A DNA stretch of 64,000 bases from an uncultured virus (IMG/VR IMGVR_UViG_3300029787_000013) (lineage: Duplodnaviria > Heunggongvirae > Uroviricota > Caudoviricetes): the IMG/VR virus record IMGVR_UViG_3300029787_000013. One strand, written 5' to 3'. A model generated the notes under the pieces. That model was given only the letters and a program-made list of their open reading frames with translations, was not told the origin of the DNA and made no database searches. A program made the translations under genes and the position numbers. Shown piece by piece: positions 6,901 to 55,976 of this stretch (position 1 is the first letter of the stretch; every line of letters begins with the position of its first letter).

Positions 6901-9900
6901 TTAGAAGTTGTATATTTAAAAACTTTTCCTTCTTCTCCTACTGTCCATTCTACAGCAGGAAGAGTAGCTATAATAAGTTTTAACTCAGGAGATATTGTAG
7001 ATGCAGGATCTATTTCATTTGTAGATCTGTAATTGGCAGTATCTTTTGTAACTACTTCTCCAGTATCAGGGTCTTCATTTAATGCATTAATTTCTTCTTG
7101 GAGAGTTTTAGAATTGACATCAAATTTATATCTTCTTAAAAAAGTAGTATTCTTTTCTATAAAAGAATTCCAATCTAATCTAACTGCTTCTGCAGTATTA
7201 TAAATAGTAGCTTTTTCTAATTTATAAGCATTTAATAAAACTTCTTCTTTTTGAGATAATTTATCTTTAGATTCTAAAACATCAATTTTAGATTGTAAAT
7301 TAAAATAAATTTCTTCTAAGTCTCCTCTTACTTTATTATAAGCAGTTTTGCCTTTTAATCCTGGTCTTCCATAAATAGGAGCTAAAAATAATTCTAAAGT
7401 TTTATTCTCTTTACTAAAATTAAAAAATTGAGAAAACTCTAACCCACTACTTATAGCTATATCAAATATTGCAGCTGTCATAGCCTCATTAATATCTTTA
7501 GATGCAGCCGCATCAATTTTAGTTGCGTTTAATGCTGCGCCTTCTTTTATAGTATAAATAGTATAATTATCAATAGTTTCTGAGTACTTACCTGTGTATA
7601 TATTTTCAAATAACGTTTGGTTTTTAGATAAATTATTAAAAAATTTATAAATAAAATCAAATATTTTTTGAATTAAAGATTTTTTAATACGTGATCCAAC
7701 TTTGTAATCTCCTTTTAATAGTGTATACTGTCTAAACTCTTCTGCTAACCACTCATCTGCTTCTTTATCAGTAAAATCTTTTAGTTTTTTAACTTCTCCT
7801 TTATAAGTAGATGCTTTTCCAGTTATGTTTCTTACTTCTACATATAATGCTTCACGTTCTGCTGGAGATAATAATTTACGAGTAATCCCATGAAATGCTT
7901 CATGGTATAAAGTACCTTTAATTGCGTCTGAAGATAATAAAATTTTACCTACTTTAGTAAAGTATCCATAATTTTGTCCGTGTACTAATCCTTGTACTAT
8001 TTCAAGTTTAAAAATAGGAGTCCCATTTTGGTTTTTAGGAACCATAGCTTTAAATTGTTCATACTCTTCAGATAAATCCATCAATTCAAAATCTTCATGT
8101 GGCATAGATACATTAAATGCTTGGCCTCCTTTTTCACCTGAAGAAGCTGAATCTTCAGGATCTATGGTTCTTTCTAAACCACCATCTTGTCCTTTTTGTA
8201 AATCGTTTAAATCTGTTGTTGACGATGTAGTTTCATCTATAACTTCAACATAATCAGTTACTGCATATTTAGCATTTAATTCTTCTTGTAAGAATAGATT
8301 ATTTTCAATAAAATCTTTTACTATATTACTACTATTTTGATCTAATTCGGTTTCACTATTATCTTTATTTATTAAAGCAGCATTTATTATTCTTACAGAT
8401 ATAGTAGAATTATCAAAATTAATACCTGTTATTTCAAAATTGGCTTTCCATGCAGGATTTTCTCCTACAGATTGATGAGTAATTGTTTTAACTTCTCCAG
8501 CTTTGTATCCTGATTCTGTTACTATATCTATAGGTTCTGTTTCATCAACAGCGTCCATATCAGTTTCAGTATCTGTTATTTCTACCTCATTTTTCTTCTT
8601 TACCATAGAATCTTGAATGCTTACTGTAGTTAAATCATCATTAGTAAGTAAATCTTTTACAGTAATATTTTTATTCCAAATAACATATACACTCATAAAT
8701 TGAGGAGTCATTGAGGTATCAACTCCCTGTCCCGATTTATCTTTATGTAAATTTAACTTAAAAGGAATATCCAATAAACTTCTTTCTTGGGACCCACTTA
8801 ATAAATACTCAGTATAATTATTCCATTGTCTAAAGTTAAAAGTTAAATCATCATTAATAATAACTTCTACGTACTCTGTATAAGCAGGATCAGAAGCTGT
8901 TGGTTTTGGATTTTTTGTTTTCCAGGTTTGTAATGCTTTATAGAATTCAGTTTGTTTGCTTTTAGGCAATGCTTTTATTTGGTTCATATTAAACCCTTTT
9001 TTCTTCATTGCTGCGCCTAGTTTCTTTTTCCATTTAGCTAATTCAGATCCTAATTCTTTTTGAGATGTAGTTCTTGCATTAATATCATCTTTTAAAGTAG
9101 GGTTATTTATTTGATAATTTAAAGTAGATAAAAATGCTTGAAGAGCAGTATGAATATCTTTATTAACATCTGTAGGATTTGCTAATTCATTTATATCTAA
9201 TTGATTATCCCCAAAATATAAAGTTTTACCCTCAAGATAAATAGAATACTGTTTAGACGCTCTATTTTTAGAGTGTTTACCAAAATAAATTAATGTTTTT
9301 AAAATTTGTTCTATAGTTTTATTAGCTGTTTCTGGGGCATAGACAGCTTCTCCTTGTTGATTAAGAGTATGTATATATGCAGCGTCTTTAGAATTCACTT
9401 TTGCAGTAGAACTCATAACGTTAGTTAACTGAGTTGCATATAATCTTAATAAATTATAAATATTTTTTTGGTGCGACATAGATAATGTGTCGACAAACAA
9501 AGGAATTAAACGTCCATTTTTTACTACATATGGAGTACCAGCTTTAACTTTATACCGTCTGTTTTCAAAATTAACAACATTATTTTTAGAGTTTATTCCA
9601 ATATTTAATTTAATATCTTTTACTTGATTTTCATTTTGTACAATTGTTTCAGAAGCCCTTGCTCTATGATTAGCATCGCCATTAACCCAAATAGGCATAC
9701 CATTAGATGTTCCCGATATTTTAATATGTCTTGGCCCTGAAACTTCTAATAACCCTTGTCTAAATGTTTTATGTTTTTCAATAGCATCAATAGCATCTTG
9801 AGTTAACTCTCCAACAAAATAAGTTCGACCTTTGTAAGCTATTTCTTTTGCAGTTGTAGCAATTAAATCTTCTTTTGAGTATCTGTATGCTTTTATAGAT

Positions 9901-12900
9901 TCTCCTTTCTTTTTAAACTCTGTAAATACATTAGAACTTGGAACGCTCGCATACATAACTTGGTCTACTCCGTCATTATCTTTTACTGTAATAGCATTTC
10001 CTTTTTTATCAGTGATAATAATTTTTATATCCTCTGAAGTTTCAGATCCTAATTCCCCTTTTATATCTTTTGAATAAGAAAAGCTTTTTGTTTTTTCATT
10101 ATAAAATACTACTTTATCTAAAATCTTTTCTGGAACAGTTTTTCTATTAACAAATGTAAGTCTATAATTATTTTGATTAGCTCCACTTAAAGTTTCTGTA
10201 AATTTATGGAACCTATTAATTGCAGAATAAAATTGTAATTCTTTTTCTAACTTAGAGGTCCATTGAGATGCTGGAGACTCTTCTTTCATTAATCGTAACG
10301 ACTTTTCTTTTTCTAAAGCTAGTTTATGATCTGAAGCAGATTTAGCAAATCCATGCTTAGTAACAGGAGTACCGTAATAATATACATTACTTTCAGGATT
10401 TTTAAACACCTCTTCCATAGATTCTTGTTCTGCCAATTCTCCTTCTTTAGTGTTAGGATCTTCATTATTATTTATCTCTTGTGTTTTTCCATATCGTAAT
10501 TCATTATATGTATTTATAATAAACCCTAAATTTTGAGCTAATGTATTTTGTAGTTGGTGCGCAATTTCAAAATCTCTATTCCTTTGCACAAACGCAGCTT
10601 TGGCTGCACCAATAGCCATTTGTAATTCTGCAGTAACATTTTCTGTAGTTAATTTACCTAAAAGTTTATCTAACTTTGCCATTTCGTCTAGCAGCCTATT
10701 ATATTCTGCTAAAGTTTCTTTTTTAGATCGTAAAGAAATTTCCCCATTTTGTTTTAAATTTAAATGTCTTTTTACTGCTGCTGCAGCATTTTTTAATAGT
10801 GAATATTCGTTTTTAATAGATTCTATTTCTTGATCTATAATACGTATAATCTCTTTAGGCAACTCTTTATCTTGTTGTGCAACTTTTATTAAGTTATTTA
10901 CTACTCTAGAGGCTTCATCTTTTTCTGGGTCAAATTCTAAAATATTTTCCCATATACTTCTCATCACAGGATTATTAGTAAAAGCCTCAGATTGTCTTAA
11001 CTGTTCAATTAATACTTGGTCTCCAACCCATTTTTCCTTCATAAAAGTAAAAATAGTTTCTTGTATTTTCTCAATAGATTTACTTTTACTAAGCTCAGGC
11101 TCTAATTTATAAAAACTATCAAGATCTGCTTTATAAGAATTTAATTTAATTTCTAACTGTTCTACTACAGCTTCTAATTGTTCTATTTGGGAAGGGACTA
11201 CTTGAAAACTACCATCTTTTAATGGTATCCTTTGAGATAAAGTATAAAAAGAAATTTTATCTGTAATTCCTTTTAAAGAGTAATTAACACCGTTTACAGT
11301 AAAATATTCTCGCCCTTTTTTATCTTTTTTTCTAAACGACTCTGGAGTCTGTTTAATATTTTGAAAAGCAGATAATAATTTAACTATTTCATTTAATTCT
11401 TTTTTAGCTTTTTCTAAAGAATGTTTTGTAGTTTCTATACTAGTTTTAATTTCTTCTTCTGTTAACTCTACTATACTTTCAATTGCTTGTATAACAACTT
11501 CATTAGAATCCATAACTTTTATATCTGTAGCTCCTTTTAACATGTTTAATGTGTAAGCAGTATACTCAGTTTTGTGCAGTTCTAATTCTTTAAGTAAAAG
11601 ATCATATTCTTTTTTTGCTTCCTTATTAGTTCGCATTAGATCTTCTAATATAGTTTTCCTTTTTAACTTTTTAATAGTATCATGATCAGGCAATCTAATT
11701 AATACTCTAGCATTTTCATTTTCAATTTGTTCTTGTTTTACAAATACAGTGTATTCTTCAGTTCTAGTATTTATATCATAAGGAGTATTATTTTCTGCTA
11801 ACGCTTGAAGATAAGCCTCTACATCTGTATGTTTTTCAGCCTGTAATATTTCTAAAACTCTTCTATCTATTTTTTCTAAGATGTTATTTTTTCTTGCATA
11901 TTTACGCACTTCTTTAACAGTAATATCTCCTTTATGTTGATAAGTAAAAGTAATAGTTTTACCATTATATCTTTCATAAAGACGTGCTAGTTCTCGATCA
12001 GATAATTTATCAGAAAGATTTTCTAGATCAGCAACTTGTCGCATTAATAAAATCTCAGGTCTAGGAATTAAAGTACCTTTATCAGTCCATGTGACATTTT
12101 CTCTTGCAGCTGAAGAATTTACTTGAACCATTTGATTGTACATATCAATCATACGATGTCTATACGCTCTAATATTTCTTATATCCTTTAATCTTTTAAT
12201 TACATCTTTATGATGGGCAGCATATGCTACAGGATCTCTTTGTTGCCACTCTTCAAGTAATTTTTGTTCATCTTTACTTAAATCTGGATCTAATCCTTCA
12301 TTTAAAGCTTTTGTTAAATAAATTTTTCTATCTAATAAAGCGTCTAATTCTTGATTTAATTTTTCTAATTGTTGTTTTTTATCTGATGGAGTTGTAACAC
12401 TTTCTTCTACACCTTTTGAATTTTTAACTTTTTCAGTCTTATCTATGTCACTAATATTAGGATCACTTTTAATAGATTCAATTTGTTCTTGAAGCGCTTT
12501 AATTTTAGTAGCTAGTTCTAAATAAAGCTCTTCCATATGAGAGGGACTAGTAAACTCTCGTATATTTTGTCTTTTCTTTACTTCTTTAGCTTCAGGCATT
12601 TCTGAAATATTTTCTTTTTGCTTAGAAGTTAATCTCTGCCAAACATTTTTTAATCTGCTCATTAAAGATTGTTGCTCAGCTTTATCTTGTTGTACTTTAT
12701 TTGTTTCTGCTTTTTCTTCAGACTCTATATCTTCTTGTAAGCCAGCTTTGTTGTTGGCTTCAATCATATTCTCTTCTCTTTTATCAAAATGTTTGCTTAT
12801 AGATAAAGCATGAGTCATCATTATTTTTTGATCTTCTCCAAATGTCCCAAACGTCCCATTAATCATTCCCCAATTTTCTTTAATCTGATCAATTTGCTCA

Positions 12901-32042: not shown

Positions 32043-32435
32043 TTATTTTTTTAGTTTTTCTACCGACCTTCCTCCAAAATAAGCTCCAATTATTGTGATA
32101 AGAGTTAATTGTAAAAGATCAGTCCACTTCTCTTCTACCACAAAATTGATAGCCCCAGCATCGATAAAAATTAAAATCATTGTACACACTAATACAAAAA
32201 TGAGCGTCATTGGACGTACATTTTTAGAAAGCCATGAATCTGATTTCATATCAGCGTCCCATCTAGTGCTTACTTGTTTTTCCATTTCCATTTGATAATT
32301 AGCCATAAGTTCTTTCATTTTTCTTTTGGCTTCTAATTTTTCTTCTTTAGAAGTGCTTAAATTATCAAGGACCCCACCAACAGAGTCTATTAATTTTTCA
32401 GTACTTCCACCAAATATTGTTTTTAATATTTTCAT
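32043..32435 (-). CDS. Holin (GTA-type 3TM-holin-like)
   Basis: DSWLSKNVRP followed by two hydrophobic helices and GAYFGGRSVEK. Confidence 0.8.
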   Translation of the reverse strand: MKILKTIFGGSTEKLIDSVGGVLDNLSTSKEEKLEAKRKMKELMANYQMEMEKQVSTRWDADMKSDSWLSKNVRPMTLIFVLVCTMILIFIDAGAINFVVEEKWTDLLQLTLITIIGAYFGGRSVEKLKK

Positions 32436-32854
32436 TTTTTATATTTTCTTTGGTTTTTAATTGGATCCAAGTTTTTAACATTACATAATACATCAACTTC
32501 ACCACCAGTTCCTGCACAAGTTGCATACACTCTAAACTTATATGGAAGTTTAAATTCTAATTTAGAAGGATGGGACGCAGGGACCCATTCCCTATTTGCA
32601 GCATCATATTCTGGTAAAAACTTATTATATTGTATCCCTGCATATAATTTTTGACTCTTATATATATAATAAGTATTTGTCCTTCTGTTTCTATTTGCAT
32701 CTTTTGAAGTTAAATATTCTTTAATGTATATAGTTATAGTAGCATTACTATTACAGTACAAAAAAAGATCTTCAATCTTGCAGTGTTTTCCTATATAAAG
32801 CACTGCAGTAGGATTACTTGTTGTTGATAAATTATATGTTTGTGTATAATCCAT
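32432..32854 (-). CDS. Hypothetical beta-rich protein
   Basis: 140 aa, translationally coupled in the operon. Confidence 0.55.
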   Translation of the reverse strand: MDYTQTYNLSTTSNPTAVLYIGKHCKIEDLFLYCNSNATITIYIKEYLTSKDANRNRRTNTYYIYKSQKLYAGIQYNKFLPEYDAANREWVPASHPSKLEFKLPYKFRVYATCAGTGGEVDVLCNVKNLDPIKNQRKYKK

Positions 32855-33339
32855 TATTTATTAACGTCATCAAAATCTACATAAGTTATTGTTACTTCTT
32901 CTCCACATTCTAATGCTTCTGCAATAGGTGGGTATACTCTTTTATATGCATTAGTAGAACTGCCTATAAACCCATCTTTTTTGACTTGGTTGTTTGTTTG
33001 CGTGTCCCCCACAAGTAAACACCCACTCGTGTGTTCATCAGTATTACCACAATGAATAAGGATATACTTAAAGTTAGGAACATTAATAACATGCAAAGTA
33101 CCTTTATGAATATCAGCAAAACGCTTAGTATAATTTTTGTGGATTCTACCAATCGTTCTAAGAATGACTTTGTATGTGCCCGCAGGTATTCTAGTTTCAT
33201 GCATGACTTTTTTGTTTTCACTGTCTCTATATTCATCTTCTAATGTATAAGCTAAAAATTTTCTTTTGTTTGTGACATCAAATAATAGACCCGATGTACT
33301 ATCGGCCTCACTTGAAAATCTAATTACTTCTAATTTCAT
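32854..33339 (-). CDS. DUF5675-family protein (L,D-transpeptidase-like, candidate endolysin)
   Basis: YTLED, IPAGTY, ILIHCGNTDEHTSGCLLVG His/Cys motif; close to the holin. Confidence 0.75.
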   Translation of the reverse strand: MKLEVIRFSSEADSTSGLLFDVTNKRKFLAYTLEDEYRDSENKKVMHETRIPAGTYKVILRTIGRIHKNYTKRFADIHKGTLHVINVPNFKYILIHCGNTDEHTSGCLLVGDTQTNNQVKKDGFIGSSTNAYKRVYPPIAEALECGEEVTITYVDFDDVNK

Positions 33340-33381
33340 TTATTTTTTTATTGTTTTTAAATATATTTATTATTCTTGATA

Positions 33382-33756
33382 TTATTCAAATTGTTTTAAC
33401 ATAATTTGATCAATAGCATTTTGAACATCACCTTTACTTGCTTCTAATTGAAACATTATATTTGGATCAAATTGTTTTTCAACATTTCCGTTATTGAAAA
33501 CGATCAAAGTAGGTATAGCTGATATATTGTATTTTGTTTGTATATCTATATACTTACCTATATCTACTCTGTATACTTCACATTCATCTAACTTAGGCAA
33601 CCATGCGCATTCATTAGTAGCATTCCAACCTGCCCAAAATTCCACTACCACAATACCTCTACTTATTTCTTTTTTAAAATTATCTGTAGTTAACATGTCT
33701 TGAGCCCCGCACAACGAGGTTACTAAAATCATTATGAGGGCTATATATTTTTTCAT
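33382..33756 (-). CDS. Exported thioredoxin-fold protein lacking CxxC
   Basis: Signal peptide MKKYIALIMILVTSLCGA|Q; VVVEFWAGWN in place of WCxxC; YNISAIPTLIVFNNG cis-Pro loop. Confidence 0.75.
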   Translation of the reverse strand: MKKYIALIMILVTSLCGAQDMLTTDNFKKEISRGIVVVEFWAGWNATNECAWLPKLDECEVYRVDIGKYIDIQTKYNISAIPTLIVFNNGNVEKQFDPNIMFQLEASKGDVQNAIDQIMLKQFE

Positions 33757-34097
33757 TTTCTAAGTTCTTTAAGTTCTTCTTTAAGTTCTTCCACTTCTTT
33801 TATAACATTATCAATCTTATCTCTTGCCATTTGATCTTTCATGTTAAACTCCATTCTTGTTGGAGGCCAAGTTTGTGAAGCGGCAGGGTCTCCCATATCT
33901 ATGACATAAGTACCTGTTCCTGGTTTAGGTTTTTCTAAAGCTTCTGCAACTTTAATTTCAAGTTCCATAAACTTACCATTTATATTTGATAACATTCCAT
34001 AATATCCTGCTACAGCTGCTGCGATTCCAGCTGCTATCCAAATAAGAGTTTTTATGCTTATATTAAATTTGCTATTTTCTGATAGTTCTTTTGCCAT
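33753..34097 (-). CDS. Single-pass membrane protein with C-terminal coiled coil
   Basis: TLIWIAAGIAAAVAGYYGML transmembrane segment; IKEVEELKEELKELRK. Confidence 0.65.
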   Translation of the reverse strand: MAKELSENSKFNISIKTLIWIAAGIAAAVAGYYGMLSNINGKFMELEIKVAEALEKPKPGTGTYVIDMGDPAASQTWPPTRMEFNMKDQMARDKIDNVIKEVEELKEELKELRK

Positions 34098-34101
34098 TTT
34101 A

Positions 34102-34422
34102 TTAATTTGTTACTTCGTTCATAATTACATCTGCTACATAGTCTGTATGACCATTAGCATACACTAGTCTAAAGGTATCATCATATACAAAAGGTTCTCC
34201 TTCAAATACATCTAAAGTGTAACCTGATGCAATTTCTATATTTTTTAATATATAATATGTATCCCCACCCGCATTTTGCAAATATAGATTTACTGCTATT
34301 GCTGTAGTATCAGTATTACATATTAAAAGTCTAAATACTTTTTTAGTTTTTCCATCATCAGTATTAACACTTAATATCTGTCCTACTGTTGTTGCGTTTA
34401 CATTTAAATATTTAAAAGTCAT
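34102..34422 (-). CDS. Small beta-sandwich phage structural-like protein
   Basis: 106 aa; LLICNTDTTAIAVNLYL...IEIASGYTLD pattern. Confidence 0.5.
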   Translation of the reverse strand: MTFKYLNVNATTVGQILSVNTDDGKTKKVFRLLICNTDTTAIAVNLYLQNAGGDTYYILKNIEIASGYTLDVFEGEPFVYDDTFRLVYANGHTDYVADVIMNEVTN

Positions 34423-34424
34423 AT

Positions 34425-34721
34425 TTATGCTATTGATATTATTCCTCTATTATTCCACAAAGTTCCAGTTGCTAAACCTTTACTTGACGTTGGTATAGCA
34501 CTACCAATAGCGCTAGCAGCTAACATCTCGTTACTAGCTATATATCTTCTAAGTTCATCTACATCTTCTCTTAGTAGTTGTATTTGATATAATAAAACAT
34601 CTATCTCATCAAGACCTGCGTAGTCTAAATGTTTATTGTTATCAAACTTAGTTTTCATAGAAGCTAAATCGCTACCTGTTTTATTATGTATATCTCCTGA
34701 TTTTCTTGCTGCTAATGCCAT
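34425..34721 (-). CDS. Hypothetical fibre-like protein (coiled coil plus PTSSKGLATGTLWNNRG motif)
   Basis: 98 aa; the C-terminal motif is typical of phage fibre domains. Confidence 0.5.
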   Translation of the reverse strand: MALAARKSGDIHNKTGSDLASMKTKFDNNKHLDYAGLDEIDVLLYQIQLLREDVDELRRYIASNEMLAASAIGSAIPTSSKGLATGTLWNNRGIISIA

Positions 34722-34731
34722 AATATTAATT

Positions 34732-35592
34732 TTAAACTGTTGCTATTGTTACGTAACCACCGTGTATTTCATCTGCTGAGCCATCTGATGTTACTCTTAC
34801 TAATATATAATTTGTTGTATCGCTAGTAACTTCAGTTCCTAAAGTTTTTTCTGTGCCAATGCTAGTTGATCCAGTCGCTACATCTGTTATTGTTTTACTA
34901 TTTATATCCCCTTCGTATACATAAAAGTCTTGACCCGTGTCGCTACCATATATTCTAACGTGTGTGGCTTTATACCCTGTTGGTATATGTAAATAAGCAA
35001 AAGCATCATTACTACTAAATGAATGCATAAATAAATAATTACTACCTATATCGTTATCATTTATCATTAAAGGTCTACCAACATCATTAGCTACAAAATC
35101 TTTAGGTAATATTTTTATTCTAGTAGCTGAACCATGCCAACCAACTGTAGTTGCAGATGGTATATCACTAGTCAAAGCAACTGTACCAGTAGTATTTGGT
35201 AATGTTATTGTTTTGTTTGAACTAGTTGTATCTGCTGCTGTTAAAGTAGTATTATATGCATCATCTGTAGATCCTTCAAATATAATTCCTGCTCCTGTAT
35301 TATCCACAAAACTTAATCCGTCACTATTTATTTTTGCTAAAAATGCAGAATCATCTTTAAATACTACATCTCCCCCATCTGCATTTAAATAAATATCATT
35401 ACCTGCATCTAACGTTATATTTCCTGTTACACCACTTGTTGATTGTAACGTTAAAGCCCCTGTACTTTGAACAGCTTTAGTCCCAGTTAAAGATCCTGAT
35501 AAATTTTCCTGTAATACAACAGGACCACCAGTAGTAATACTACCTATAGATTTAATTTCACCAGTTCTCTTATGTTGGCCTAACCATTTCAT
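34732..35592 (-). CDS. Putative tail/head fibre protein
   Basis: 286 aa, Gly/Ser/Thr-rich; ITLDAGNDIYLNADGGDV, KTITLPNTTGTVALTSDIP. Confidence 0.6.
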   Translation of the reverse strand: MKWLGQHKRTGEIKSIGSITTGGPVVLQENLSGSLTGTKAVQSTGALTLQSTSGVTGNITLDAGNDIYLNADGGDVVFKDDSAFLAKINSDGLSFVDNTGAGIIFEGSTDDAYNTTLTAADTTSSNKTITLPNTTGTVALTSDIPSATTVGWHGSATRIKILPKDFVANDVGRPLMINDNDIGSNYLFMHSFSSNDAFAYLHIPTGYKATHVRIYGSDTGQDFYVYEGDINSKTITDVATGSTSIGTEKTLGTEVTSDTTNYILVRVTSDGSADEIHGGYVTIATV

Positions 35593-35826
35593 TTATTTAC
35601 ACTTATCACATTTTTTATTACCCGCAAATTTTTCTACACCACTAATACCAAAACATCCTAATACAACCCATACAAATGAATCATATACGAATTCATTAAT
35701 TACTAGATCAGAACCAGTTGCACCAGTTACTAGATCTATGATCATAACTATGACCATTATTAAGAATGCTATAAAGCCAACCACAGCTTTTTCATTCCAA
35801 TCGTTACTATCTTTAAATATATTCAT
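35593..35826 (-). CDS. Small two-TM membrane protein (holin/antiholin-like)
   Basis: 77 aa; AVVGFIAFLIMVIVMIIDLV and FVWVVLGCFGISGVEKF. Confidence 0.65.
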   Translation of the reverse strand: MNIFKDSNDWNEKAVVGFIAFLIMVIVMIIDLVTGATGSDLVINEFVYDSFVWVVLGCFGISGVEKFAGNKKCDKCK

Positions 35827-35836
35827 ATAATTTATT

Positions 35837-36190
35837 TTAAATTTGTTCTATTGGTGGTTCTAATAAAAATCCTCCCATTTGTTTTTTCTTTCCTCCTTTT
35901 TTATACATCATTTTATTTCCTCCTTTTTTATATAATTTACCTCCTTTTTTTCTCATTGTTTGAGGAACATAGTCTAAAACTTTAGGGTCTTTCTTTACTC
36001 CTGAAGTTTTATTTCTATCTGGATATTTCTTTTTATCATCATATACATTTTCATCAGGATCTTCATTTATATCTCTTGTAGTATATTTTTTTTCTACTCC
36101 GTCTTTACCTGCCCAGTAAAAATATCTTACACCTGCATCTCTTGCAGATCTGTAGGCTTTCTCGAAAGAGGTTAATTTTTTCTTTGTCAT
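35837..36190 (-). CDS. Small basic protein with tandem KKGG repeats
   Basis: 117 aa; SFEKAYRSARDAG..FYWAGK; MRKKGG KLYKKGG NKMMYKKGG KKKQMGG. Confidence 0.65.
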   Translation of the reverse strand: MTKKKLTSFEKAYRSARDAGVRYFYWAGKDGVEKKYTTRDINEDPDENVYDDKKKYPDRNKTSGVKKDPKVLDYVPQTMRKKGGKLYKKGGNKMMYKKGGKKKQMGGFLLEPPIEQI

Positions 36191-36202
36191 AACATTTTAA
36201 TT

Positions 36203-36949
36203 TTAATCTAATTTATATTTTACTTTTCCATTTTGAATATATAATCCATCAGGTTGCCTTATAGCTTGTCCTAATAAATTATACATTGTATTATTATTTT
36301 TAGATTGTTCTATAATTTCAGGAATATTTGAATTACAAGGCATTCCTGTATCACAATCTATATACTCTGTAGATATAACATCTACATATTCTATTATAGT
36401 ATCTGTAGTAAAAAACTCTATATATTCTGTTTCTATCTCTACTATTGTATCAAATACAAATACATCTACATACTCTATTACATCTATAAACATAGTGTCC
36501 AAAGCTCCTTCCATCCATAATGTATCTGTAACAAATATTTCTTCAAATATAGTTTCATATTCAATTTCTATTATAGTATCAAAAAGTATTTGTGTAATAT
36601 ATTCTGTGTTGTATATAGTATCTATTTGAAGAACTGTCTCATATATATAAACAGGTATATCCACATATACAGTATCACAAAGTGGTGGAGGTGGTATACA
36701 ATCTAAAGGTAAGGTTGGTGTTACATCATCCCCCTCATCGCTGGCATCTACACAATCGATCCACCCATCGTTAATCCAAGATGTTTGAACACATCCTAAT
36801 GGAGCATATTGTGTCCAGTTTTCTGGATCATCTCCACAGTAATAACCTTCTGCTTCAGCACATTGTAAGCATAGTTGCTGAAAATCGTACCCTTGTCCAT
36901 AAGTAAACGAACCTATAAACAATACTAATATATATATAATTCTTTTCAT
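36203..36949 (-). CDS. Exported protein: LDL-receptor class A-like head, DT-repeat stalk, T9SS-type C-terminal sorting signal
   Basis: Signal peptide ...SFTYG|Q; GCVQTSWINDGWIDCVDASDE; seven D-T-[VILM] motifs; YNLLGQ...GLYIQNGKVKY at the C terminus. Confidence 0.7.
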   Translation of the reverse strand: MKRIIYILVLFIGSFTYGQGYDFQQLCLQCAEAEGYYCGDDPENWTQYAPLGCVQTSWINDGWIDCVDASDEGDDVTPTLPLDCIPPPPLCDTVYVDIPVYIYETVLQIDTIYNTEYITQILFDTIIEIEYETIFEEIFVTDTLWMEGALDTMFIDVIEYVDVFVFDTIVEIETEYIEFFTTDTIIEYVDVISTEYIDCDTGMPCNSNIPEIIEQSKNNNTMYNLLGQAIRQPDGLYIQNGKVKYKLD

Positions 36950-36952
36950 ATT

Positions 36953-38014
36953 TTAAAATATTAAATAGTTAAATCCAAACTTACAGTCATAAACAGTTTT
37001 ACCCCAATACTTCATATGAGTACCTTCTACAAATAAACCTAAATGTTTTGTAAGGCGCCATCCTAATACTAAACCAGCATCCCATTCTATTGAACTATCA
37101 GTATATTCATAACTGTAATCATCTAATCCGTAGTGATATGGCATTATATTTCCCCATGCGTGAATCCAAAAAGTTGGTGTATATTTATAATAAGCTAAAC
37201 CTATTACAGCACTAATTTCTTTTTGTAAACCTAATTTATTTAATTCTTGCTCATTAAATCTTGCAACTGCATCACCAAACCACCAATTATAAAATTCATC
37301 ATTTGATGTAGCAATCAATATAGAATCACCGCTACTAACGTCATACCAGTTTTGATCTACATAAAAGCCTTGTACCCATTGTTCTGAAGCATAACCAAAA
37401 TCTTCTGCCAAATCTTGAAATGTAGATTCTCCAGGTACCCAGAAATCTTCAATAGGATTTATTCCATATGCAGGATGAACGCGAAATACTGTTCCCACAG
37501 TAAAGTCCCAATTTCCTGAATTAAGTCTAAATCTTGTATCAAAGGATGTATATTTTAAATTTACTCTCTGGTTATCTGTATATTGAATTTTGGTCACACA
37601 TTTAGATCCCAAGTATCTAAGCCAGAAATTTTGATCAGTAAATTTTTCACCGCGATTACGTATAAACGAATAATTAAATAAATACTCCCAACCAACAGAA
37701 TTACCAATAGTAACATTGTCTGCAATATTGTCTTCAGTTCCGTAATACCACGTTTTAACTTTGTATTCATAATCAAATCTTGCTATTTTTCGTAGGCCTA
37801 CTGTTATATTAAAATCATAAGGATTGACCCACGTTACGTCCTCATAACCTTTATCGATTGCTATATAATCCTCGCTTTCTGTCATTGATGTTCCCATAGA
37901 CATCGATGAATAAAAAGTAGAATATTTAAAAAAGTCTTCTATTTGTGCACAGCATTTCTTTGGCGTAGCACATGATGTTAATAAGATTGCTAATAATATT
38001 AATATTTTTTTCAT
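36953..38014 (-). CDS. Putative outer-membrane beta-barrel protein
   Basis: Signal peptide with lipobox-like LTSC; alternating aromatic amphipathic strands (WEYLFNYSF, WDFTVGTVFR, WDAGLVLGW); ends FGFNYLIF (beta-signal). Confidence 0.7.
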   Translation of the reverse strand: MKKILILLAILLTSCATPKKCCAQIEDFFKYSTFYSSMSMGTSMTESEDYIAIDKGYEDVTWVNPYDFNITVGLRKIARFDYEYKVKTWYYGTEDNIADNVTIGNSVGWEYLFNYSFIRNRGEKFTDQNFWLRYLGSKCVTKIQYTDNQRVNLKYTSFDTRFRLNSGNWDFTVGTVFRVHPAYGINPIEDFWVPGESTFQDLAEDFGYASEQWVQGFYVDQNWYDVSSGDSILIATSNDEFYNWWFGDAVARFNEQELNKLGLQKEISAVIGLAYYKYTPTFWIHAWGNIMPYHYGLDDYSYEYTDSSIEWDAGLVLGWRLTKHLGLFVEGTHMKYWGKTVYDCKFGFNYLIF

Positions 38015-38883
38015 TATGTTATATTGTATTTTTGTTTTAGTCTTCTTTCTATTTCTTTTATTTCTTTATCTGGTAAAGCTATAGAATACATTAATATTTC
38101 ATAAATATCACCGTCCCAGGACCCACCCCCTAGTAGTATTTCACACCCAGTATTATTAGCATCTAATGCATAATCTTGATCTTTAGTATTTCCATTAGTT
38201 ATACCATCACTAGTATCGCCGTTTGCATACATGTAAGCACTTGAACTTCCAGCGCATCTAATTGTCCAAAGTTCAACATTTGTTGTAGCTTGTCTACTAC
38301 TACTTTGATTAACATCACCAGTTTTATCACTCGCATTCCCCATAAATATGTGATAGTTATTAGCTTTAACTCCTATGGTCATTGGATCATCTGTATTATC
38401 ACTTATATCATGTCCTTGTATCTGAAGTAAGTGCTCTTGTCCTGGGGTAGCACTATCATTTTTTGCTACCCAAAATATAGTGATAGCTTGTCCATTTAAA
38501 CGTGAGTCAGATAATTTATTTGTCGCTACATTTCCACTAGATTTATTTGCAAAAAGTGTATCATTAGCACCATCAAATCTTGCAAAAACATGACCATTTT
38601 GTCCACCTGATATAAGAGCAGGTTGTTTTGACGCATCACTTTGTCTTAAACTTGTTCCTGTACATAAAGTAGAAGACCTACCAAATCTATCATTAAAAGC
38701 TTTATTATCAACAACTGCTATTGTATCAATATTAGGATTTGCTTTTGTTCCAGAAGTATCACTGTACACAGTTCTAAGATCTGTAAAGTCTATCCATAAT
38801 ACAGGACCCTCCTTTATAGAACTATATTTCTTTTTTCTAAATTTAGTAGAACTACTAGTATTTGATGATCTTAAACTTAACAT
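38014..38883 (-). CDS. LamG/concanavalin-A-like lectin-fold structural protein
   Basis: LWIDFTD, ARFDGANDTL, WDGDIYEILMY...LPDKEIKEIERRLKQKY. Confidence 0.7.
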   Translation of the reverse strand: MLSLRSSNTSSSTKFRKKKYSSIKEGPVLWIDFTDLRTVYSDTSGTKANPNIDTIAVVDNKAFNDRFGRSSTLCTGTSLRQSDASKQPALISGGQNGHVFARFDGANDTLFANKSSGNVATNKLSDSRLNGQAITIFWVAKNDSATPGQEHLLQIQGHDISDNTDDPMTIGVKANNYHIFMGNASDKTGDVNQSSSRQATTNVELWTIRCAGSSSAYMYANGDTSDGITNGNTKDQDYALDANNTGCEILLGGGSWDGDIYEILMYSIALPDKEIKEIERRLKQKYNIT

Positions 38884-46695: not shown

Positions 46696-48120
46696 TTATG
46701 AAGCTACACACTCCATGTCAAGAGAAGTATCAAATCTTCGAAGCACTATACCTGCTGTTTTAAGCATGTGTACAGAAGCCCCATCAATATCAGACGCTCT
46801 AGATCCATTACCATCGAATCCTCTAGGCACAACTGATCCAGCTACACACCATCTTAGCATCTCACGTCCTTTTTTGTTGATCATTTGAACATTGTTCTGA
46901 CCATCATAGTTTGAATTGTCAACAAAGACCATTCTGTAAGATTCTAAAGAATATCCTGTAGCAGGATGTTTAGCTCTAGCTTGAGCAACTGGTCCATGAT
47001 CAAACATAGGAACTTTAACTACATTTACTTTATAACCATCAATATGATCATAAGAAGTAAAGTAACCAGTCATTCCTAAAGATCGTCCTGATCCAGTAAT
47101 AAATTTACTATCAGCAGTTACTTTCCAATTACCTGTTGCAAATCCACCAGTGTAATTTTTTAAAGCAGAATCAAATTCTCTAGCACCACCAATACCTGTA
47201 TAAAGTGTAATTACTTTATCAGCAGCATCAGTCATACCATAAAACATATCGCCAATAGTATTTAATAATTTACCTTCAGTTAAAGTAGAATAAGAATCTT
47301 TATTGATAATTTGTTGAAGTAAGCCTGGTCCATTAATAATTGGTTGTCCATTCTCATCTTGCATAGTTGTTTGACCTTTATCATCATAAGTCTTTTCACC
47401 ATACCAATATAATAATTCGCATTCTTCTTTAAATCTAAGCATGTGTCTGTACTCTTCATAGTCCATCCAAAGCTTAGTTTGTTTTCCACCTTTAGTTGGA
47501 AGATTAAATTCAGCAACATAATCTTTTGCATTACCTGCAAAGTGGTATGATTTTCTAACCGTACCAATTTTGTTACGAACTAATCCTGGAGCTGTCCAAT
47601 TAGAAGCATTACCTCTAGAGAAGTCTAACCCAACGTTAGCATACATCATTCCCCATAAAGCTCCTGCAGTAATATCTGCAGCTGCTATTTGGCTAGTTGT
47701 TGATGGATTAACTTGTCTCACAGTGTACTGCCATCCATTAGATACCTGTACAGGTTCAGCCATAATTCTAACTTGTGCCCCTGATTCAGAGATTAAGTTA
47801 TATGGGAACACAAACCATTTGTCTGGGAATGTCAATTTAAAAGGCATTCCTCCAGAGTCTGGAGTTGCGTCTGCTGCGGCAACTAATGGCCTAACATTAA
47901 TTTCATGTGTTTTTACTCGATATTCATACTCCCATCTATCAATAGATTTAGTATTGCCGACACCTTCTGTCAGCATTGTTAATGGAAATTTACGATCTTC
48001 TTTACCAGCCAAATGTGTAATAATTGGTGAAAGCTCAGTAGGTTTTTCCATTAGTGCTGCAGAAAGACTGTTACTATCAGTCATTTGCGCGTCGTTATAA
48101 AACGTTTTTACTACTTGCAT
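46696..48120 (-). CDS. Major capsid protein (HK97 fold, crAss-like)
   Basis: 474 aa; position after the scaffold-like gene; GPGLLQQI, LYTGIGGAREF, GHPxxSY-like ATGYSLESY; strong downstream stem-loops. Confidence 0.85.
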   Translation of the reverse strand: MQVVKTFYNDAQMTDSNSLSAALMEKPTELSPIITHLAGKEDRKFPLTMLTEGVGNTKSIDRWEYEYRVKTHEINVRPLVAAADATPDSGGMPFKLTFPDKWFVFPYNLISESGAQVRIMAEPVQVSNGWQYTVRQVNPSTTSQIAAADITAGALWGMMYANVGLDFSRGNASNWTAPGLVRNKIGTVRKSYHFAGNAKDYVAEFNLPTKGGKQTKLWMDYEEYRHMLRFKEECELLYWYGEKTYDDKGQTTMQDENGQPIINGPGLLQQIINKDSYSTLTEGKLLNTIGDMFYGMTDAADKVITLYTGIGGAREFDSALKNYTGGFATGNWKVTADSKFITGSGRSLGMTGYFTSYDHIDGYKVNVVKVPMFDHGPVAQARAKHPATGYSLESYRMVFVDNSNYDGQNNVQMINKKGREMLRWCVAGSVVPRGFDGNGSRASDIDGASVHMLKTAGIVLRRFDTSLDMECVAS

Positions 48121-55212: not shown

Positions 55213-55578
55213 TTACCCTTTCTTAAATATTGCGTATTCACAAATTACAGTTTCATCAATTGCTATAAGCTCTACTCCTACATCTATTAAACATGGTATC
55301 CATGCAAATTCTCCTGTAGCTATTTGTGCATAAGCTGTATTATCTACAAGTCTAATGTTTACGGGTTTACTATTTGTACTACTTATATTTTTTACATAAA
55401 GATAGTAAGCACCTGCAGATGCAGCTGCTAATACTGTTCCAGTACCTGTATGTATTACAGATACTTTACCTACTTCTGTAGGTTCTGTAGTTGTTAATGA
55501 ATCTGTTGCTGTTATACTAATAGCATCAGATTGTGCATCTGCGCTTGTTAATGTAAAGGTCGGTGTTAATGTTGCCAT
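55213..55578 (-). CDS. Small structural-like protein, paralog 2
   Basis: MATLTPTFTLTSAD...YLYVKN...GEFAWIP. Confidence 0.65.
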   Translation of the reverse strand: MATLTPTFTLTSADAQSDAISITATDSLTTTEPTEVGKVSVIHTGTGTVLAAASAGAYYLYVKNISSTNSKPVNIRLVDNTAYAQIATGEFAWIPCLIDVGVELIAIDETVICEYAIFKKG

Positions 55579-55604
55579 ATTATTATTATTTTATTTTATT
55601 ATTA

Positions 55605-55976
55605 TTATGCTGTTGCTTCAAATATCATTAATTCTAATACAGGACTTCCACTGTCTGAATTTGCAAATAATTCTACAGTTCCATCCCAGTTAAAAAACAT
55701 AAATTCTCCTGGTCCTAGTTCCATCCAATCTGCCGTACTAGAATTATCAGGGCCTAATGTCATAACAATTGAGGTATCTGTATTTTTTACGAATACATAA
55801 CATTTATTATAAGCAGTTCCAATAATTGATACTCCATTACTACCACCTGTTGGAACAGCAATTCTTTTTCTGATTACATCTCCAGCTACAGATAAAGAAT
55901 CTGTTACGGATAAACTTAAAGTATCTGCTCCTGAATCTGCACTCGTTAGTGTTAAAGTTGGTGTTAAAGTTGCCAT
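55605..55976 (-). CDS. Small structural-like protein, paralog 1
   Basis: MATLTPTLTLTSAD...YVFVKN...GEFMFF. Confidence 0.65.
   Translation of the reverse strand: MATLTPTLTLTSADSGADTLSLSVTDSLSVAGDVIRKRIAVPTGGSNGVSIIGTAYNKCYVFVKNTDTSIVMTLGPDNSSTADWMELGPGEFMFFNWDGTVELFANSDSGSPVLELMIFEATA

What the first reader, a model, noticed from the sequence alone, without database searches (positions are those of the whole stretch)
33382..38014. Phage-encoded host-envelope module: beta-barrel OMP, T9SS-type cargo, exported CxxC-less thioredoxin and membrane anchors, beside the lysis genes
Seen: three genes carry N-terminal signal peptides, each followed by Gln (CCA|Q, YG|Q, CGA|Q), and two membrane proteins (35593, 33753) are interspersed. 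All lie between the fibre genes and DUF5675/holin. Established: Gln after the SPI cleavage site is typical of Bacteroidota exported proteins; OM barrels need BAM; CTD proteins need T9SS. Inference: the phage builds a complex spanning inner membrane, periplasm, outer membrane and surface late in infection. It could be a spanin-independent OM-lysis device, a superinfection-exclusion or receptor-masking system, or an aggregation/anti-grazing factor. I know of no described system like this.
Basis: partly seen in the sequence, partly recalled or inferred. Interest (0 to 1): 0.82.

Follow-up and report, generated by a model that had tools for sequence, protein, structure and literature searches.

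The report
Phage outer-membrane barrel lysis cassette
Uncultured marine phages of Bacteroidota carry a portable gene set for an outer-membrane barrel, an inner-membrane anchor, a disabled thioredoxin and an exported rod-like protein, built into their cell-bursting genes; it is probably an undescribed way of breaking the bacterial outer membrane.

Summary
The window is a marine crAss-like phage. Three genes (36953-38014, 36203-36949, 33382-33756) have signal peptides followed by a conserved Gln, and two (35593-35826, 33753-34097) are membrane proteins. The 353-aa protein models as a 12-strand outer-membrane barrel (VIA Z 15.2). The 124-aa protein is a thioredoxin fold with no CxxC in 44 of 44 homologues. 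The "T9SS cargo" label failed: 0 of 35 homologues match the CTD profile. That protein is instead an LDL-receptor-A-like module, a variable acidic beta-repeat and a 40-residue C-terminal motif.

New here: barrel, anchor and thioredoxin-like genes travel together in 96 viral loci wherever flank exists, down to 30-45% barrel identity. A complete 67-kb phage with no other detectable similarity shares the cassette at up to 80% identity. An endolysin candidate of one of three kinds lies within 1.8 kb in 41 of 45 close loci. In remote lineages the genes overlap endolysin and holin in one operon. No lipoprotein o-spanin candidate was found.

Best reading (0.45): a trans-envelope device for the outer-membrane step of lysis. 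Function is inferred from context only. No cultured phage carries it, and I found no description of it.

The parts
36953..38014 (-). g353: exported 12-strand outer-membrane beta-barrel of a family with no Pfam model. In this variant the leader carries a lipobox-like LLTSC and an extra ATPKKCCA before the invariant Gln24. A roughly 75-residue helix-containing insertion lies at residues 187-261.
   Evidence: AF2 model; Foldseek; VIA Z 15.2 to EstA, 14.9 KdgM, 14.4 Tsx and NalP, 13.2 LpxR; alignments A1 and A2; 0 of 40 members match any Pfam OMP family; 523 homologues and 243 clusters at 50% identity.
36203..36949 (-). g248: exported protein made of a leader + Gln, an LDL-receptor class A-like Cys-rich module (residues about 22-77), a Pro linker, a variable-length acidic (D/E)-T-(I/V) beta-repeat (residues about 91-198), a Cys pair, and a conserved roughly 40-residue C-terminal motif (..YNxxGQAIxxxxGLYIxNGKxKYK).
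   Evidence: Alignments; 29 of 35 sub-threshold PF00057 hits and 0 of 35 T9SS CTD hits; AF2 gives the N-domain pLDDT 84-90, the repeat about 25 and the C-terminus about 75; LA modules at Z 2.0-3.1 with 26-37% identity.
35593..35826 (-). g77: small protein with two transmembrane spans and a basic C-terminus (class-II-holin-like topology). It is present in 18 of the 48 close loci and g77-like genes in 10 of the 48 remote loci.
   Evidence: Hydropathy; alignment; HMM hits in remote loci; the L016 analogue weakly matches holin phrog_9987 at 0.0017.
33753..34097 (-). g114: type II inner-membrane anchor. It has a cytoplasmic N-terminus, one TM span at about 16-36, then a coiled coil, a near-invariant PKPGTGTYxIDMGDPAAxxTWPPTRMEFNMKDQMAR block and a C-terminal coiled coil. 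Its stop overlaps the g124 start by 4 nt.
   Evidence: It belongs to phrog_20984 (29 of 30 members, best 1.4e-8) and matches Rz-like spanin phrog_739 only weakly (12 of 30, best 0.011).
33382..33756 (-). g124: exported thioredoxin-fold protein without the CxxC active site, so presumably redox-inactive and acting by binding.
   Evidence: PF00085 at 1.5e-9; TIGR01068 at 1.1e-10 but below its cut-off; alignment of 44 homologues; PDB profile search.
32854..33339 (-). DUF5675 protein: endolysin candidate (C82-like peptidase fold according to a 2026 preprint). It carries an H..TSGC motif.
   Evidence: PF18925 at 9.8e-25; phrog_1501; passages of bioRxiv 10.64898/2026.04.11.717860. It lies within 1.8 kb of the cassette in 31 of the 45 close loci.
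32043..32435 (-). Holin.
   Evidence: phrog_3427 at 6.4e-29; PF11351 at 1.7e-5.
34102..36190 (-). Lineage-specific inserts within the cassette, not part of the conserved module. They are basic K/G-rich g117 (35837-36190), fibre-like g286 (34732-35592), g98 (34425-34721) and g106 (34102-34422). g77 (35593-35826) lies among them.
   Evidence: They are absent from most loci, where barrel, g248, g114 and Trx are contiguous or nearly so. A stretch of g286 DNA resembles Pelagibacter phage tail-fibre genes.

Best explanation
The genes form a horizontally mobile, late-expressed envelope module of phages that infect Bacteroidota, and the module serves the last step of lysis: breaching the outer membrane (OM).

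Proposed working. All parts are exported by the host Sec pathway. The barrel g353 is inserted into the OM by BAM. g114 stays anchored in the inner membrane with its coiled coil in the periplasm. The redox-dead thioredoxin-fold protein g124, and the protein carrying the C-terminal motif (g248), sit between them as adaptors or spacers. Once holin and endolysin have removed the peptidoglycan, the tethered assembly destabilises the OM. It would thus act like a spanin, with a beta-barrel in place of the lipoprotein o-spanin.

Shown: export signals, folds, co-conservation, mobility, and position inside lysis cassettes.
Inferred: physical contacts, timing, and the act of OM disruption itself.
For: (1) Topology fits a span from inner to outer membrane. 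There is an OM barrel, a type II inner-membrane anchor with coiled coil, and two Sec-exported soluble proteins.

(2) Strict co-occurrence. Among 45 close loci with a complete barrel ORF, g248 is present in all. g114 and Trx are present and adjacent wherever the contig continues. In 48 loci found with barrels only 30-45% identical to the window's, 40 have both g114-like and Trx-like genes. The other 8 end at most 816 bp after the barrel or lack a complete barrel ORF.

(3) Mobility as a unit. G004 is a 67-kb phage record rated 100% complete. It shares the barrel (80%), g248 (71%), g114 (69%), Trx (46%) and DUF5675 (65%) with the window. Beyond these it gives only four weak hits (24-40% identity, holin 27%) and none to capsid, portal or ring proteins. 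The crAss-type relative G002 shares the backbone but has a less similar barrel (74%). Other carriers have P22-like or HK97-type portals.

(4) Lysis context persists when the endolysin type changes. An endolysin candidate lies within 1.8 kb in 41 of 45 close loci: DUF5675 in 31, a 202-aa phrog_33083 endolysin in 9, and Peptidase_M15_3 in 1. In L064-type phages the genes run as overlapping ORFs in the order 2TM, barrel, g114-like, Trx-like, C-motif protein, M15 endolysin, phrog_3427 holin.

(5) No classical o-spanin candidate. The only lipobox ORF in the window is the barrel itself, and no credible one exists in the complete genomes G002 and G004.

(6) About 15% of phages are reported to lack spanins (abstract of bioRxiv 10.1101/515445), so alternative OM-disruption systems are expected.
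Against: No experiment and no expression data exist; function rests on gene context alone.

There is no significant homology to any spanin. Rz-like phrog_739 is matched by only 12 of 30 members, best E 0.011, over the TM and coiled-coil part.

Beta-barrels are not known to fuse or rupture membranes.

The cassette also neighbours tail-fibre genes, and in the window's lineage fibre-like genes are inserted within it.

Small lipoproteins do occur inside or beside the cassette in some lineages. Examples are L024:6778-6963 and the 183-201-aa ORFs after the barrel in L098-L105. A conventional OM partner may therefore exist there.

In the remote set, holin or endolysin was detected near the barrel in only 27 of 48 loci. 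This figure is limited by flank length and by the use of only three endolysin queries.

The barrel model has modest confidence (pLDDT 60.6).
Confidence: 0.45

Rival explanations
1. The barrel itself is the effector. It would be an OM lipid-hydrolysing enzyme or a gated pore, like the 12-strand enzymes LpxR and OMPLA. g114, Trx and g248 would act as regulators or activators rather than as a mechanical tether. OM breaching would then be enzymatic or osmotic.
For: LpxR (Z 13.2) and OMPLA (Z 10.6, 12% identity) are among the structural matches. The mature barrel is unusually conserved: 63-83% identity among the 120 listed homologues. Polar residues are near-invariant even in homologues of 30-45% identity, including R75, K76, R79, E94, E110, R119, R133, K142, R161, R178, H180, S268, H285 and E330. 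OMPLA activity is induced by envelope perturbation (abstract of PMC5043575). Recalled, not from a call: colicin lysis proteins act through OMPLA.
Against: No catalytic constellation could be placed. The best structural matches are autotransporter domains and porins, not enzymes, and Z values within about 2 are effectively ties. Conserved charged residues are also typical of barrel lumens.
Confidence: 0.15
2. The module controls lysis timing. It would be a periplasm- or OM-sensing relay to the holin, in the manner of antiholin or lysis-inhibition systems, and would not itself break the OM.
For: It is embedded with holin genes and includes a second, holin-like 2-TM protein, g77. A precedent in speculation exists: a marine phage-encoded CsgGF OM pore was proposed to trigger lysis (passages of PMC9004378).
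Against: Four to five conserved parts, including a BAM-dependent barrel, is heavy machinery for a timer. g77 is missing from most loci (found in 18 of 48 and 10 of 48), whereas the barrel-anchor-Trx triad is constant.
Confidence: 0.12
3. The module remodels the cell surface for superinfection exclusion, receptor masking or aggregation. This covers the reader's other options.
For: Phage-encoded OM proteins with such roles are known (lambda Lom and Bor, T5 Llp; recalled, not from a call). g248 has a ligand-binding LA-like module and a stalk of variable length, and its counterparts in other lineages swap the N-terminal domain while keeping the C-terminal motif. That pattern is typical of surface-exposed, diversifying proteins.
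Against: The genes are co-oriented with endolysin and holin and in some lineages overlap them translationally. This points to expression at the end of infection, when exclusion is of little use. The barrel and anchor are more conserved than the virion proteins, which is not the pattern expected of arms-race surface proteins.
Confidence: 0.12
4. g248 is a T9SS substrate with a shortened C-terminal signal, and the barrel is its PorP/SprF-like outer-membrane partner.
For: The C-terminal motif (YNxxGQxI...GLYI..GK.K) resembles the last strands of type A CTDs (a recalled resemblance). The motif is kept while N-terminal domains are swapped, which is how a sorting signal behaves. Hosts are Bacteroidota by the Q-rule (abstract of PMC5837995).
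Against: 0 of 35 homologues match Por_Secre_tail at E<=10. NCBIfam gives no hit, type A or B, for the window protein at E<=1. 0 of 5 phage records match TIGR04183. The conserved C-terminal block is only about 40 residues and models as one helix plus short strands, whereas CTDs are seven-strand Ig-like sandwiches whose architecture is essential (abstract of PMC11285876). 0 of 40 barrel homologues match PorP_SprF or any other Pfam family.
Confidence: 0.06
5. The proteins are virion or assembly components, as their location in the structural gene block might suggest.
For: They lie between crAss ring, muzzle and fibre genes.
Against: Cleavable Sec leaders and a BAM-type barrel are incompatible with cytoplasmic virion assembly. 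The cassette also occurs in phages with unrelated virion modules.
Confidence: 0.02

Closest known systems
Two-component spanins (lambda Rz/Rz1 type)
   Same: They are encoded in the lysis cassette. One subunit is a type II inner-membrane protein with a periplasmic coiled coil, like g114. A second subunit is anchored in the outer membrane. Together they are needed, or here inferred to be needed, after holin and endolysin.
   Different: The OM subunit here is a 353-aa 12-strand beta-barrel, not a small proline-rich lipoprotein. Two further exported proteins (a Trx fold and the C-motif protein) are constant partners. g114 has no cysteines. There is no significant sequence relation (phrog_739 best E 0.011). 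The gene next to the anchor is the Trx-like gene, not an embedded lipoprotein gene.
Disruptin (phiKT gp28 cationic peptide) as the known non-spanin OM-disruption route
   Same: It shows that phages lacking spanins use other means to breach the OM (abstract of bioRxiv 10.1101/515445).
   Different: It is a single small cationic peptide, not a multi-protein exported assembly.
Phage-encoded curli pore CsgGF of marine phage Melnitz
   Same: It is a marine phage-encoded outer-membrane beta-barrel with a periplasmic partner, and was proposed to influence lysis (passages of PMC9004378).
   Different: CsgG is a nonameric lipoprotein secretion channel of a known family. The barrel here is monomer-sized with 12 strands, belongs to no known family, and comes with an inner-membrane anchor and a Trx-fold protein.
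12-strand OM barrels: autotransporter beta-domains (EstA, NalP), KdgM/NanC porins, Tsx, LpxR, OMPLA
   Same: Fold class and size. VIA Z 15.2-10.6 over 163-215 aligned residues.
   Different: Sequence identity is 7-12%. There is no passenger domain. A roughly 75-residue helical insertion is present. No Pfam family is matched.
Thioredoxin / periplasmic Trx-fold proteins (TlpA, DsbA class)
   Same: Trx fold above the Pfam threshold, and Sec-exported.
   Different: There is no CxxC in any of 44 homologues, so the protein is not an oxidoreductase. The nearest analogy is the structural use of thioredoxin by phages (T7, f1; recalled).
T9SS cargo with C-terminal domain plus PorP/SprF-type partner
   Same: Bacteroidota context, a conserved C-terminal motif on proteins with swapped N-terminal domains, and an adjacent OM barrel gene.
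   Different: The profile and fold criteria of the CTD are not met. The barrel matches no PorP/SprF model.

Membership tests
Outer-membrane beta-barrel (BAM substrate class) | N-terminal Sec signal peptide | tested here: met
   A variable hydrophobic leader is followed by invariant Gln24 in 33 sequences. The same pattern holds in homologues of 30-45% identity. No SignalP run was available.
Outer-membrane beta-barrel (BAM substrate class) | C-terminal beta-signal ending in an aromatic residue | tested here: met
   ...KFGFNYLIF: F346, G347, F348, N349, Y350 and L351 are invariant and F353 is at least 90% conserved in A1.
Outer-membrane beta-barrel (BAM substrate class) | Closed antiparallel barrel resembling solved OM barrels | tested here: met
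   AF2 gives 12 strands of 10-16 residues, with mean pLDDT 60.6. All Foldseek rows shown are OM barrels, with 102 hits at E<=0.001. VIA gives Z 15.2 (EstA, rmsd 3.8, 193 aligned), 14.9 (KdgM) and 14.4 (Tsx, NalP).
Any described OMP family (Pfam OMP_b-brl, PorP_SprF, OmpA_membrane, etc.) | Profile match | tested here: not met
   0 of 40 family members match any OMP family at E<=10. NCBIfam gives none. HMMER filters drop many hits above E of about 0.1.
Thioredoxin (PF00085) | Profile match above the gathering score | tested here: met
   38.2 bits against a cut-off of 23.5, E 1.5e-9. The profile search finds 156 PDB thioredoxin-family sequences at E<=0.001.
Thioredoxin (PF00085) | CxxC redox active site | tested here: not met
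   WCGPC is replaced by WA[GSDE]WN in 43 of 44 unique homologues. The 44th (L016) reads NSEWN, also without a Cys pair. The motif is aligned to WCGHC of TXNDC5.
T9SS type A C-terminal domain (TIGR04183 / PF18962) | Profile match | tested here: not met
   The window protein has no hit at E<=1 in NCBIfam. 0 of 35 homologues match in Pfam at E<=10. 0 of 5 related phage records match, six frames (that search had no positive control above its cut-off).
T9SS type A C-terminal domain (TIGR04183 / PF18962) | Compact seven-strand Ig-like beta-sandwich (abstract of PMC11285876) | tested here: not met
   The conserved block after the last Cys pair is about 43 residues. It models as helix 209-219 plus short strands at 222-224, 235-239 and 242-246. 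The fold search of this part was weak and is in itself inconclusive.
T9SS type A C-terminal domain (TIGR04183 / PF18962) | Host possesses a T9SS and secretion depends on it | not testable with these tools
   The host is unknown and no whole genome is held.
T9SS type B C-terminal domain (TIGR04131) | Profile match | tested here: not met
   NCBIfam gives no hit for the window protein at E<=1. Homologues were not scanned against NCBIfam.
LDL-receptor class A module (PF00057) | Six-Cys frame with the acidic D-x-S-D-E calcium-binding cluster | tested here: met
   C27, C30, C38, C53, C66 and C84 are invariant, as are D61, W63, D65, D68, D71 and E72 (..NDGWxDCxDxSDE).
LDL-receptor class A module (PF00057) | Profile match above the gathering score | tested here: not met
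   16.5 bits against a cut-off of 24.1 for the window protein. 29 of 35 homologues match only below threshold, best E 4.2e-4.
LDL-receptor class A module (PF00057) | Fold resembles solved LA modules | tested here: inconclusive
   By their titles, 9 of 23 VIA rows are LDL-receptor-family repeats, with 26-37% identity over 35-42 residues. Z is only 2.0-3.1, as expected for so small a domain.
Two-component spanin | i-spanin: type II inner-membrane protein with periplasmic coiled coil, encoded in the lysis cassette | tested here: met
   g114 has one N-terminal TM span and heptad-like C-terminal sequence. It lies in lysis cassettes.
Two-component spanin | o-spanin: small OM lipoprotein (lipobox Cys) whose gene is adjacent to, overlapping or embedded in the i-spanin gene | tested here: not met
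   No lipobox ORF of 25 aa or more exists in the window other than the barrel itself, and none credible in G002 or G004 (my own regex, not a curated tool). The gene overlapping g114 encodes the Trx-fold protein.
Two-component spanin | Sequence relation to known Rz-like families | tested here: inconclusive
   phrog_739 (Rz-like spanin) is matched by 12 of 30 members at E<=1, best 0.011, over the TM and coiled-coil region. The family's real PHROG is phrog_20984, of unknown function (29 of 30, best 1.4e-8).
Crassvirales (phage backbone of the window) | crAss capsid, ring and muzzle protein families | tested here: met
   Crass_capsid 1.6e-79, CrAss_Ring_1 1.7e-56, CrAss_Ring_2 7e-35, crAss_MUZ 1.1e-40. 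The capsid protein is at most about 31% identical to GenBank crAss phages.

The most novel reading that the evidence does not exclude
The module is a third class of phage outer-membrane-breaching system and is specific to phages of Bacteroidota. In the boldest reading, the phage-made 12-strand barrel also serves as a port or anchor, working in trans like an autotransporter beta-domain, for exported proteins that share a roughly 40-residue C-terminal motif. Those proteins are the acidic, calcium-binding g248 rod, or other heads in other lineages. The phage would then install its own small protein-export and tethering pathway across the host envelope in order to burst it.
Probability: 0.2. Interest if true: 0.92.

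Novelty: categorically new. Interest (0 to 1): 0.8.

Why it matters
How phages without recognisable spanins get through the outer membrane is an open question in phage lysis, and lysis in Bacteroidota phages is largely uncharted. This work defines a testable candidate: a portable gene set with clear parts (OM barrel, inner-membrane anchor, dead thioredoxin, C-motif protein). It is found in several hundred sequence clusters of uncultured marine phages and across unrelated phage backbones.

If it breaks the outer membrane, it adds a new mechanism class built on a virus-encoded BAM substrate. It would also give annotators a marker for lysis cassettes in Bacteroidota phages, and offer new tools for permeabilising Bacteroidota envelopes.

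Even if the function proves different, three things are unusual. These are a phage-only OM barrel family with no Pfam model, a conserved CxxC-less periplasmic thioredoxin partner, and an LDL-receptor-A-like module in a phage.

Tried and rejected
Complex prediction of g114 (residues 37-114) with g124 (residues 20-124): no verdict (score 0.02 against a mark of 0.32). It counts neither for nor against binding.

The only holders of half or more of the sampled words are X1 (possibly the source sample) and X2, both labelled marine metagenome.

Searches of cultured and GenBank phages found no match. By tblastn, the barrel (window g353, P0139, P0121, P0142) and g114 were all negative. blastn of window 33000-38500 hit only stretches of 88-119 nt (2% of the query) in 3 Pelagibacter phage tail-fibre records.

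Bacterial genomes: two pattern-based scans of 185,579 species genomes found no relative of the barrel. Sensitivity is limited to a few peptide patterns.

ESM Atlas: all 30 nearest clusters of the barrel, and 29 of 30 for g248, are unnamed viral clusters. The nearest named clusters are OMP families at 0.93 with few shared features, which are leads only.

DUF5675 against PDB by sequence: nothing significant.

hhalign of the g248 family against the L064 182-aa protein aligned only the 23-column C-terminal motif (E 0.049, probability 1%). The link between the two protein types therefore rests on that motif and on gene position. My regex found the motif in 16 of 48 remote loci, but in only 4 of 47 close g248 ORFs because the pattern was too strict for them.

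Earlier findings of this scan: none for this genome.

Literature searches: 'DUF5675'; 'spanin' + 'crAss-like'; 'spanin' + Flavobacterium + phage + outer membrane; phage-encoded + outer membrane + beta-barrel + lysis + spanin. I saw only search listings and abstracts, plus passages of five papers. None describes this module. Subscription journals are not covered.

Considered and dropped: the two small proteins at 55213-55976 as Trx paralogues. A BLAST hit next to the Trx gene of G002 suggested this, but their sequences are unrelated to thioredoxin. Also dropped: the 59-aa Cys-rich ORF upstream of the cassette in the non-crAss lineage as a holin, because it has no hydrophobic span.

Full report
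**What the window is.** All substantial ORFs lie on the - strand, and GC is 27-36%. Pfam identifies a crAss-type capsid protein (46696-48120, 1.6e-79), ring proteins 1, 2 and 3/4, and the muzzle protein. The capsid protein is at most about 31% identical to any GenBank phage. The related records are phages of Bacteroides and Flavobacterium or gut crAss phages. The window is therefore a deep-branching crAss-like phage. Apart from the possible source sample, the only run holding more than half of the sampled words is labelled marine metagenome.

**The observation.** The finding's interval holds nine - strand genes.
- *Exported proteins.* g353, g248 and g124 begin with a basic, then hydrophobic, leader followed by Gln. 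In family alignments the leaders vary freely. The Gln is invariant in g353 (33 sequences), invariant in g124 (28 sequences) and at least 90% conserved in g248 (35 sequences). This is the Bacteroidetes Q-rule for signal peptidase I substrates (abstracts of PMC5837995 and PMC10653852). P. gingivalis phages are already reported to encode such proteins (passages of PMC10367356).
- *Specificity of the signal.* A crude six-frame regex found no other credible 'leader + Gln' ORF in the window or in two complete relatives. This is my own pattern, not SignalP. It missed some true members, for example the G004 Trx-like gene.
- *Membrane proteins.* g77 has two hydrophobic spans and a basic tail. g114 has one span after a 16-residue polar N-terminus, followed by coiled-coil-like sequence.

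**The parts.**
- *g353.* It models as 12 long antiparallel strands with a helical insertion at 187-261 (mean pLDDT 60.6, pTM 0.58). Every Foldseek PDB row shown is an outer-membrane barrel. An independent all-against-representatives search puts 12-strand barrels on top: EstA Z 15.2, KdgM 14.9, Tsx and NalP 14.4, NanC 14.1, LpxR 13.2. The C-terminus ...FGFNYLIF is conserved. No Pfam or NCBIfam family is matched by the protein or by any of 40 relatives.
- *g124.* It is a thioredoxin fold above the Pfam threshold. None of 44 unique homologues has CxxC; the site reads WA[GSDE]WN in 43 and NSEWN in the L016 copy.
- *g248.* It is not a recognisable T9SS substrate. It consists of the following elements:
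  - An LDL-receptor class A-like module with six invariant Cys and NDGWxDCxDxSDE. AF2 gives this domain pLDDT 84-90. LA repeats are its best structural matches, at 26-37% identity but low Z. Pfam matches stay below threshold in 29 of 35 homologues.
  - A proline linker.
  - An acidic (D/E)-T-(I/V) repeat whose length varies between homologues in blocks of about 22 residues. It could not be modelled.
  - A Cys pair.
  - A conserved 40-residue C-terminal motif.
- *DUF5675* (32854-33339). It carries an H...TSGC motif. A 2026 preprint groups it structurally with C82 peptidases as a lysin candidate (passages only).
- *The holin* (32043-32435) matches phrog_3427 at 6.4e-29.

**The module is real and mobile.**
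- *Close set.* A search with g353 returned 48 IMG/VR loci. In 45 of them a complete barrel ORF could be called. In these, g248 always follows the barrel. g114 (113-116 aa) and the Trx-like gene are adjacent to each other and present wherever the contig continues. In L016 the anchor is a diverged 92-aa form. The fibre-like and basic genes that interrupt the cassette in the window (g117, g286, g98, g106) are absent from most loci.
- *Transfer between backbones.* Carriers have different backbones: crAss-type, one with a P22-like portal and phrog_6681 terminase, and one with an HK97-type portal. The complete 67-kb genome G004 shares with the window the barrel (80%), g248 (71%), g114 (69%), Trx (46%) and DUF5675 (65%). 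Beyond these it gives four weak hits (24-40%) and none to capsid, portal or ring proteins. The crAss-type relative G002 shares the backbone, but its barrel is only 74% identical. This is the signature of a cassette exchanged as a unit.
- *Remote set.* An exhaustive HMMER search found 243 clusters at 50% identity. They include full-length barrels only 30-45% identical to the window's, on contigs of viral size. Loci fetched with three of these (48 loci) again show barrel, g114-like and Trx-like genes together in 40. The remaining 8 end within 816 bp of the barrel or lack a complete barrel ORF. In at least 16 of these loci the gene after Trx encodes an exported protein of 169-182 aa. Its N-terminal domain is different, but its C-terminal motif is the same (YYDILGRxV...GFYI...). 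Profile comparison supports only the motif itself.
- *Host range.* Leaders in these remote lineages also end in Gln, so the module appears confined to phages of Bacteroidota.

**Link to lysis.**
- In 41 of the 45 close loci an endolysin candidate lies within 1.8 kb of the cassette. It is of three unrelated kinds: DUF5675 in 31, a 202-aa phrog_33083 endolysin in 9, and Peptidase_M15_3 in 1.
- Of the four exceptions, three have less than 2.3 kb of downstream flank. The fourth, L015, has 10 kb upstream with no hit.
- In L016 the order is barrel, g248, 2TM, anchor, Trx, M15 endolysin, holin.
- In the L064 type, seven tightly packed ORFs, several overlapping at stop and start, run 2TM, barrel, anchor, Trx, C-motif protein, M15 endolysin, holin.
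- Neither the window nor the complete genomes G002 and G004 has a credible small lipoprotein that could be an o-spanin.

**Explanation.** The anatomy is an OM anchor, an inner-membrane anchor with a periplasmic coiled coil, and two periplasmic or exported proteins, all built into the holin-endolysin unit. The best fit is a device for the third step of Gram-negative lysis, working like a spanin but built differently (confidence 0.45). It is not a member of the spanin family: the lipoprotein subunit is missing and sequence relation is at noise level.

Rivals:
- The barrel acts as an enzyme or pore (0.15).
- The module is a lysis-timing relay (0.12).
- The module remodels the surface or excludes other phages (0.12).
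- The T9SS cargo reading (0.06).
- The proteins are virion parts (0.02).

Points against my reading:
- Function rests on context alone.
- Barrels are not known to rupture membranes.
- Fibre genes are also neighbours.
- Small lipoproteins occur within the cassette in a few lineages.
- In the remote set a holin or endolysin was detected near only 27 of 48 barrels with my three queries.

**Novelty.** No GenBank phage record contains the barrel (four queries) or g114. Two pattern scans of bacterial genomes found nothing. Four literature searches, read as listings, abstracts and passages, found no description. The nearest ideas in print are spanins, the phiKT disruptin and the speculative lysis role of a phage CsgGF pore. 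I rate the module categorically new in composition. Its function remains to be shown.

Noticed in passing
window 36953-38014 (N-terminus of g353); also G004 and P0003, P0006: This variant of the barrel has an inserted L[LI][TI]SC-ATPKKCCA between the hydrophobic core and the invariant Gln. LTSC is lipobox-like, so some variants may be lipidated (signal peptidase II) rather than cut before Gln. Most homologues lack the insert.
   Followed up: partly
L007:13717-14238 and 13 further loci: A PAP2-superfamily (lipid phosphatase-like) ORF (PF01569, 4.7e-8) lies about 1 kb from the cassette in the non-crAss lineage. tblastn finds relatives in 14 of 96 loci and none in the window. It is a second envelope-lipid-directed gene near the lysis genes.
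   Followed up: partly
L024:6778-6963 (identical in L006): A 61-aa ORF with a classical lipobox (LAAGC) and a Pro-rich mature part lies between the barrel and g248. It is o-spanin-like and was seen in only 2 of the 48 close loci.
   Followed up: partly
window 903-14768: A giant 4621-aa ORF with no Pfam hit lies downstream of the muzzle and two further large ORFs. Its position suggests a crAss virion-packaged giant protein; this is recalled and was not tested.
   Followed up: no
window 35837-36190 (g117); L013, L023, L033 and others upstream of the cassette: Small, very basic K/G/R-rich proteins recur around the cassette in several lineages (window g117 has pI 9.8, and others begin 'MAFKMxGFxPFTK'). 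Their function is unknown.
   Followed up: no
L007:126-7826, L005:83-5758: Giant ORFs of 1900-2566 aa upstream of the fibre genes in the non-crAss carrier lineage contain an AAA_33 / Zeta-toxin-like kinase domain (PF13671 at 1.9e-9, PF06414 at 1.5e-5).
   Followed up: no
window 38014-38883: The 289-aa protein directly upstream of the barrel is a concanavalin/LamG-like putative fibre or receptor-binding part (PF13385 at 1.1e-4, below its cut-off; phrog_10356 at 4e-8). It is conserved only in the crAss-type relatives.
   Followed up: no
L024:8610-8984: A staphylococcal-nuclease-like gene (PF00565 at 8.8e-11) is inserted between the Trx-like gene and g77 in one lineage.
   Followed up: no
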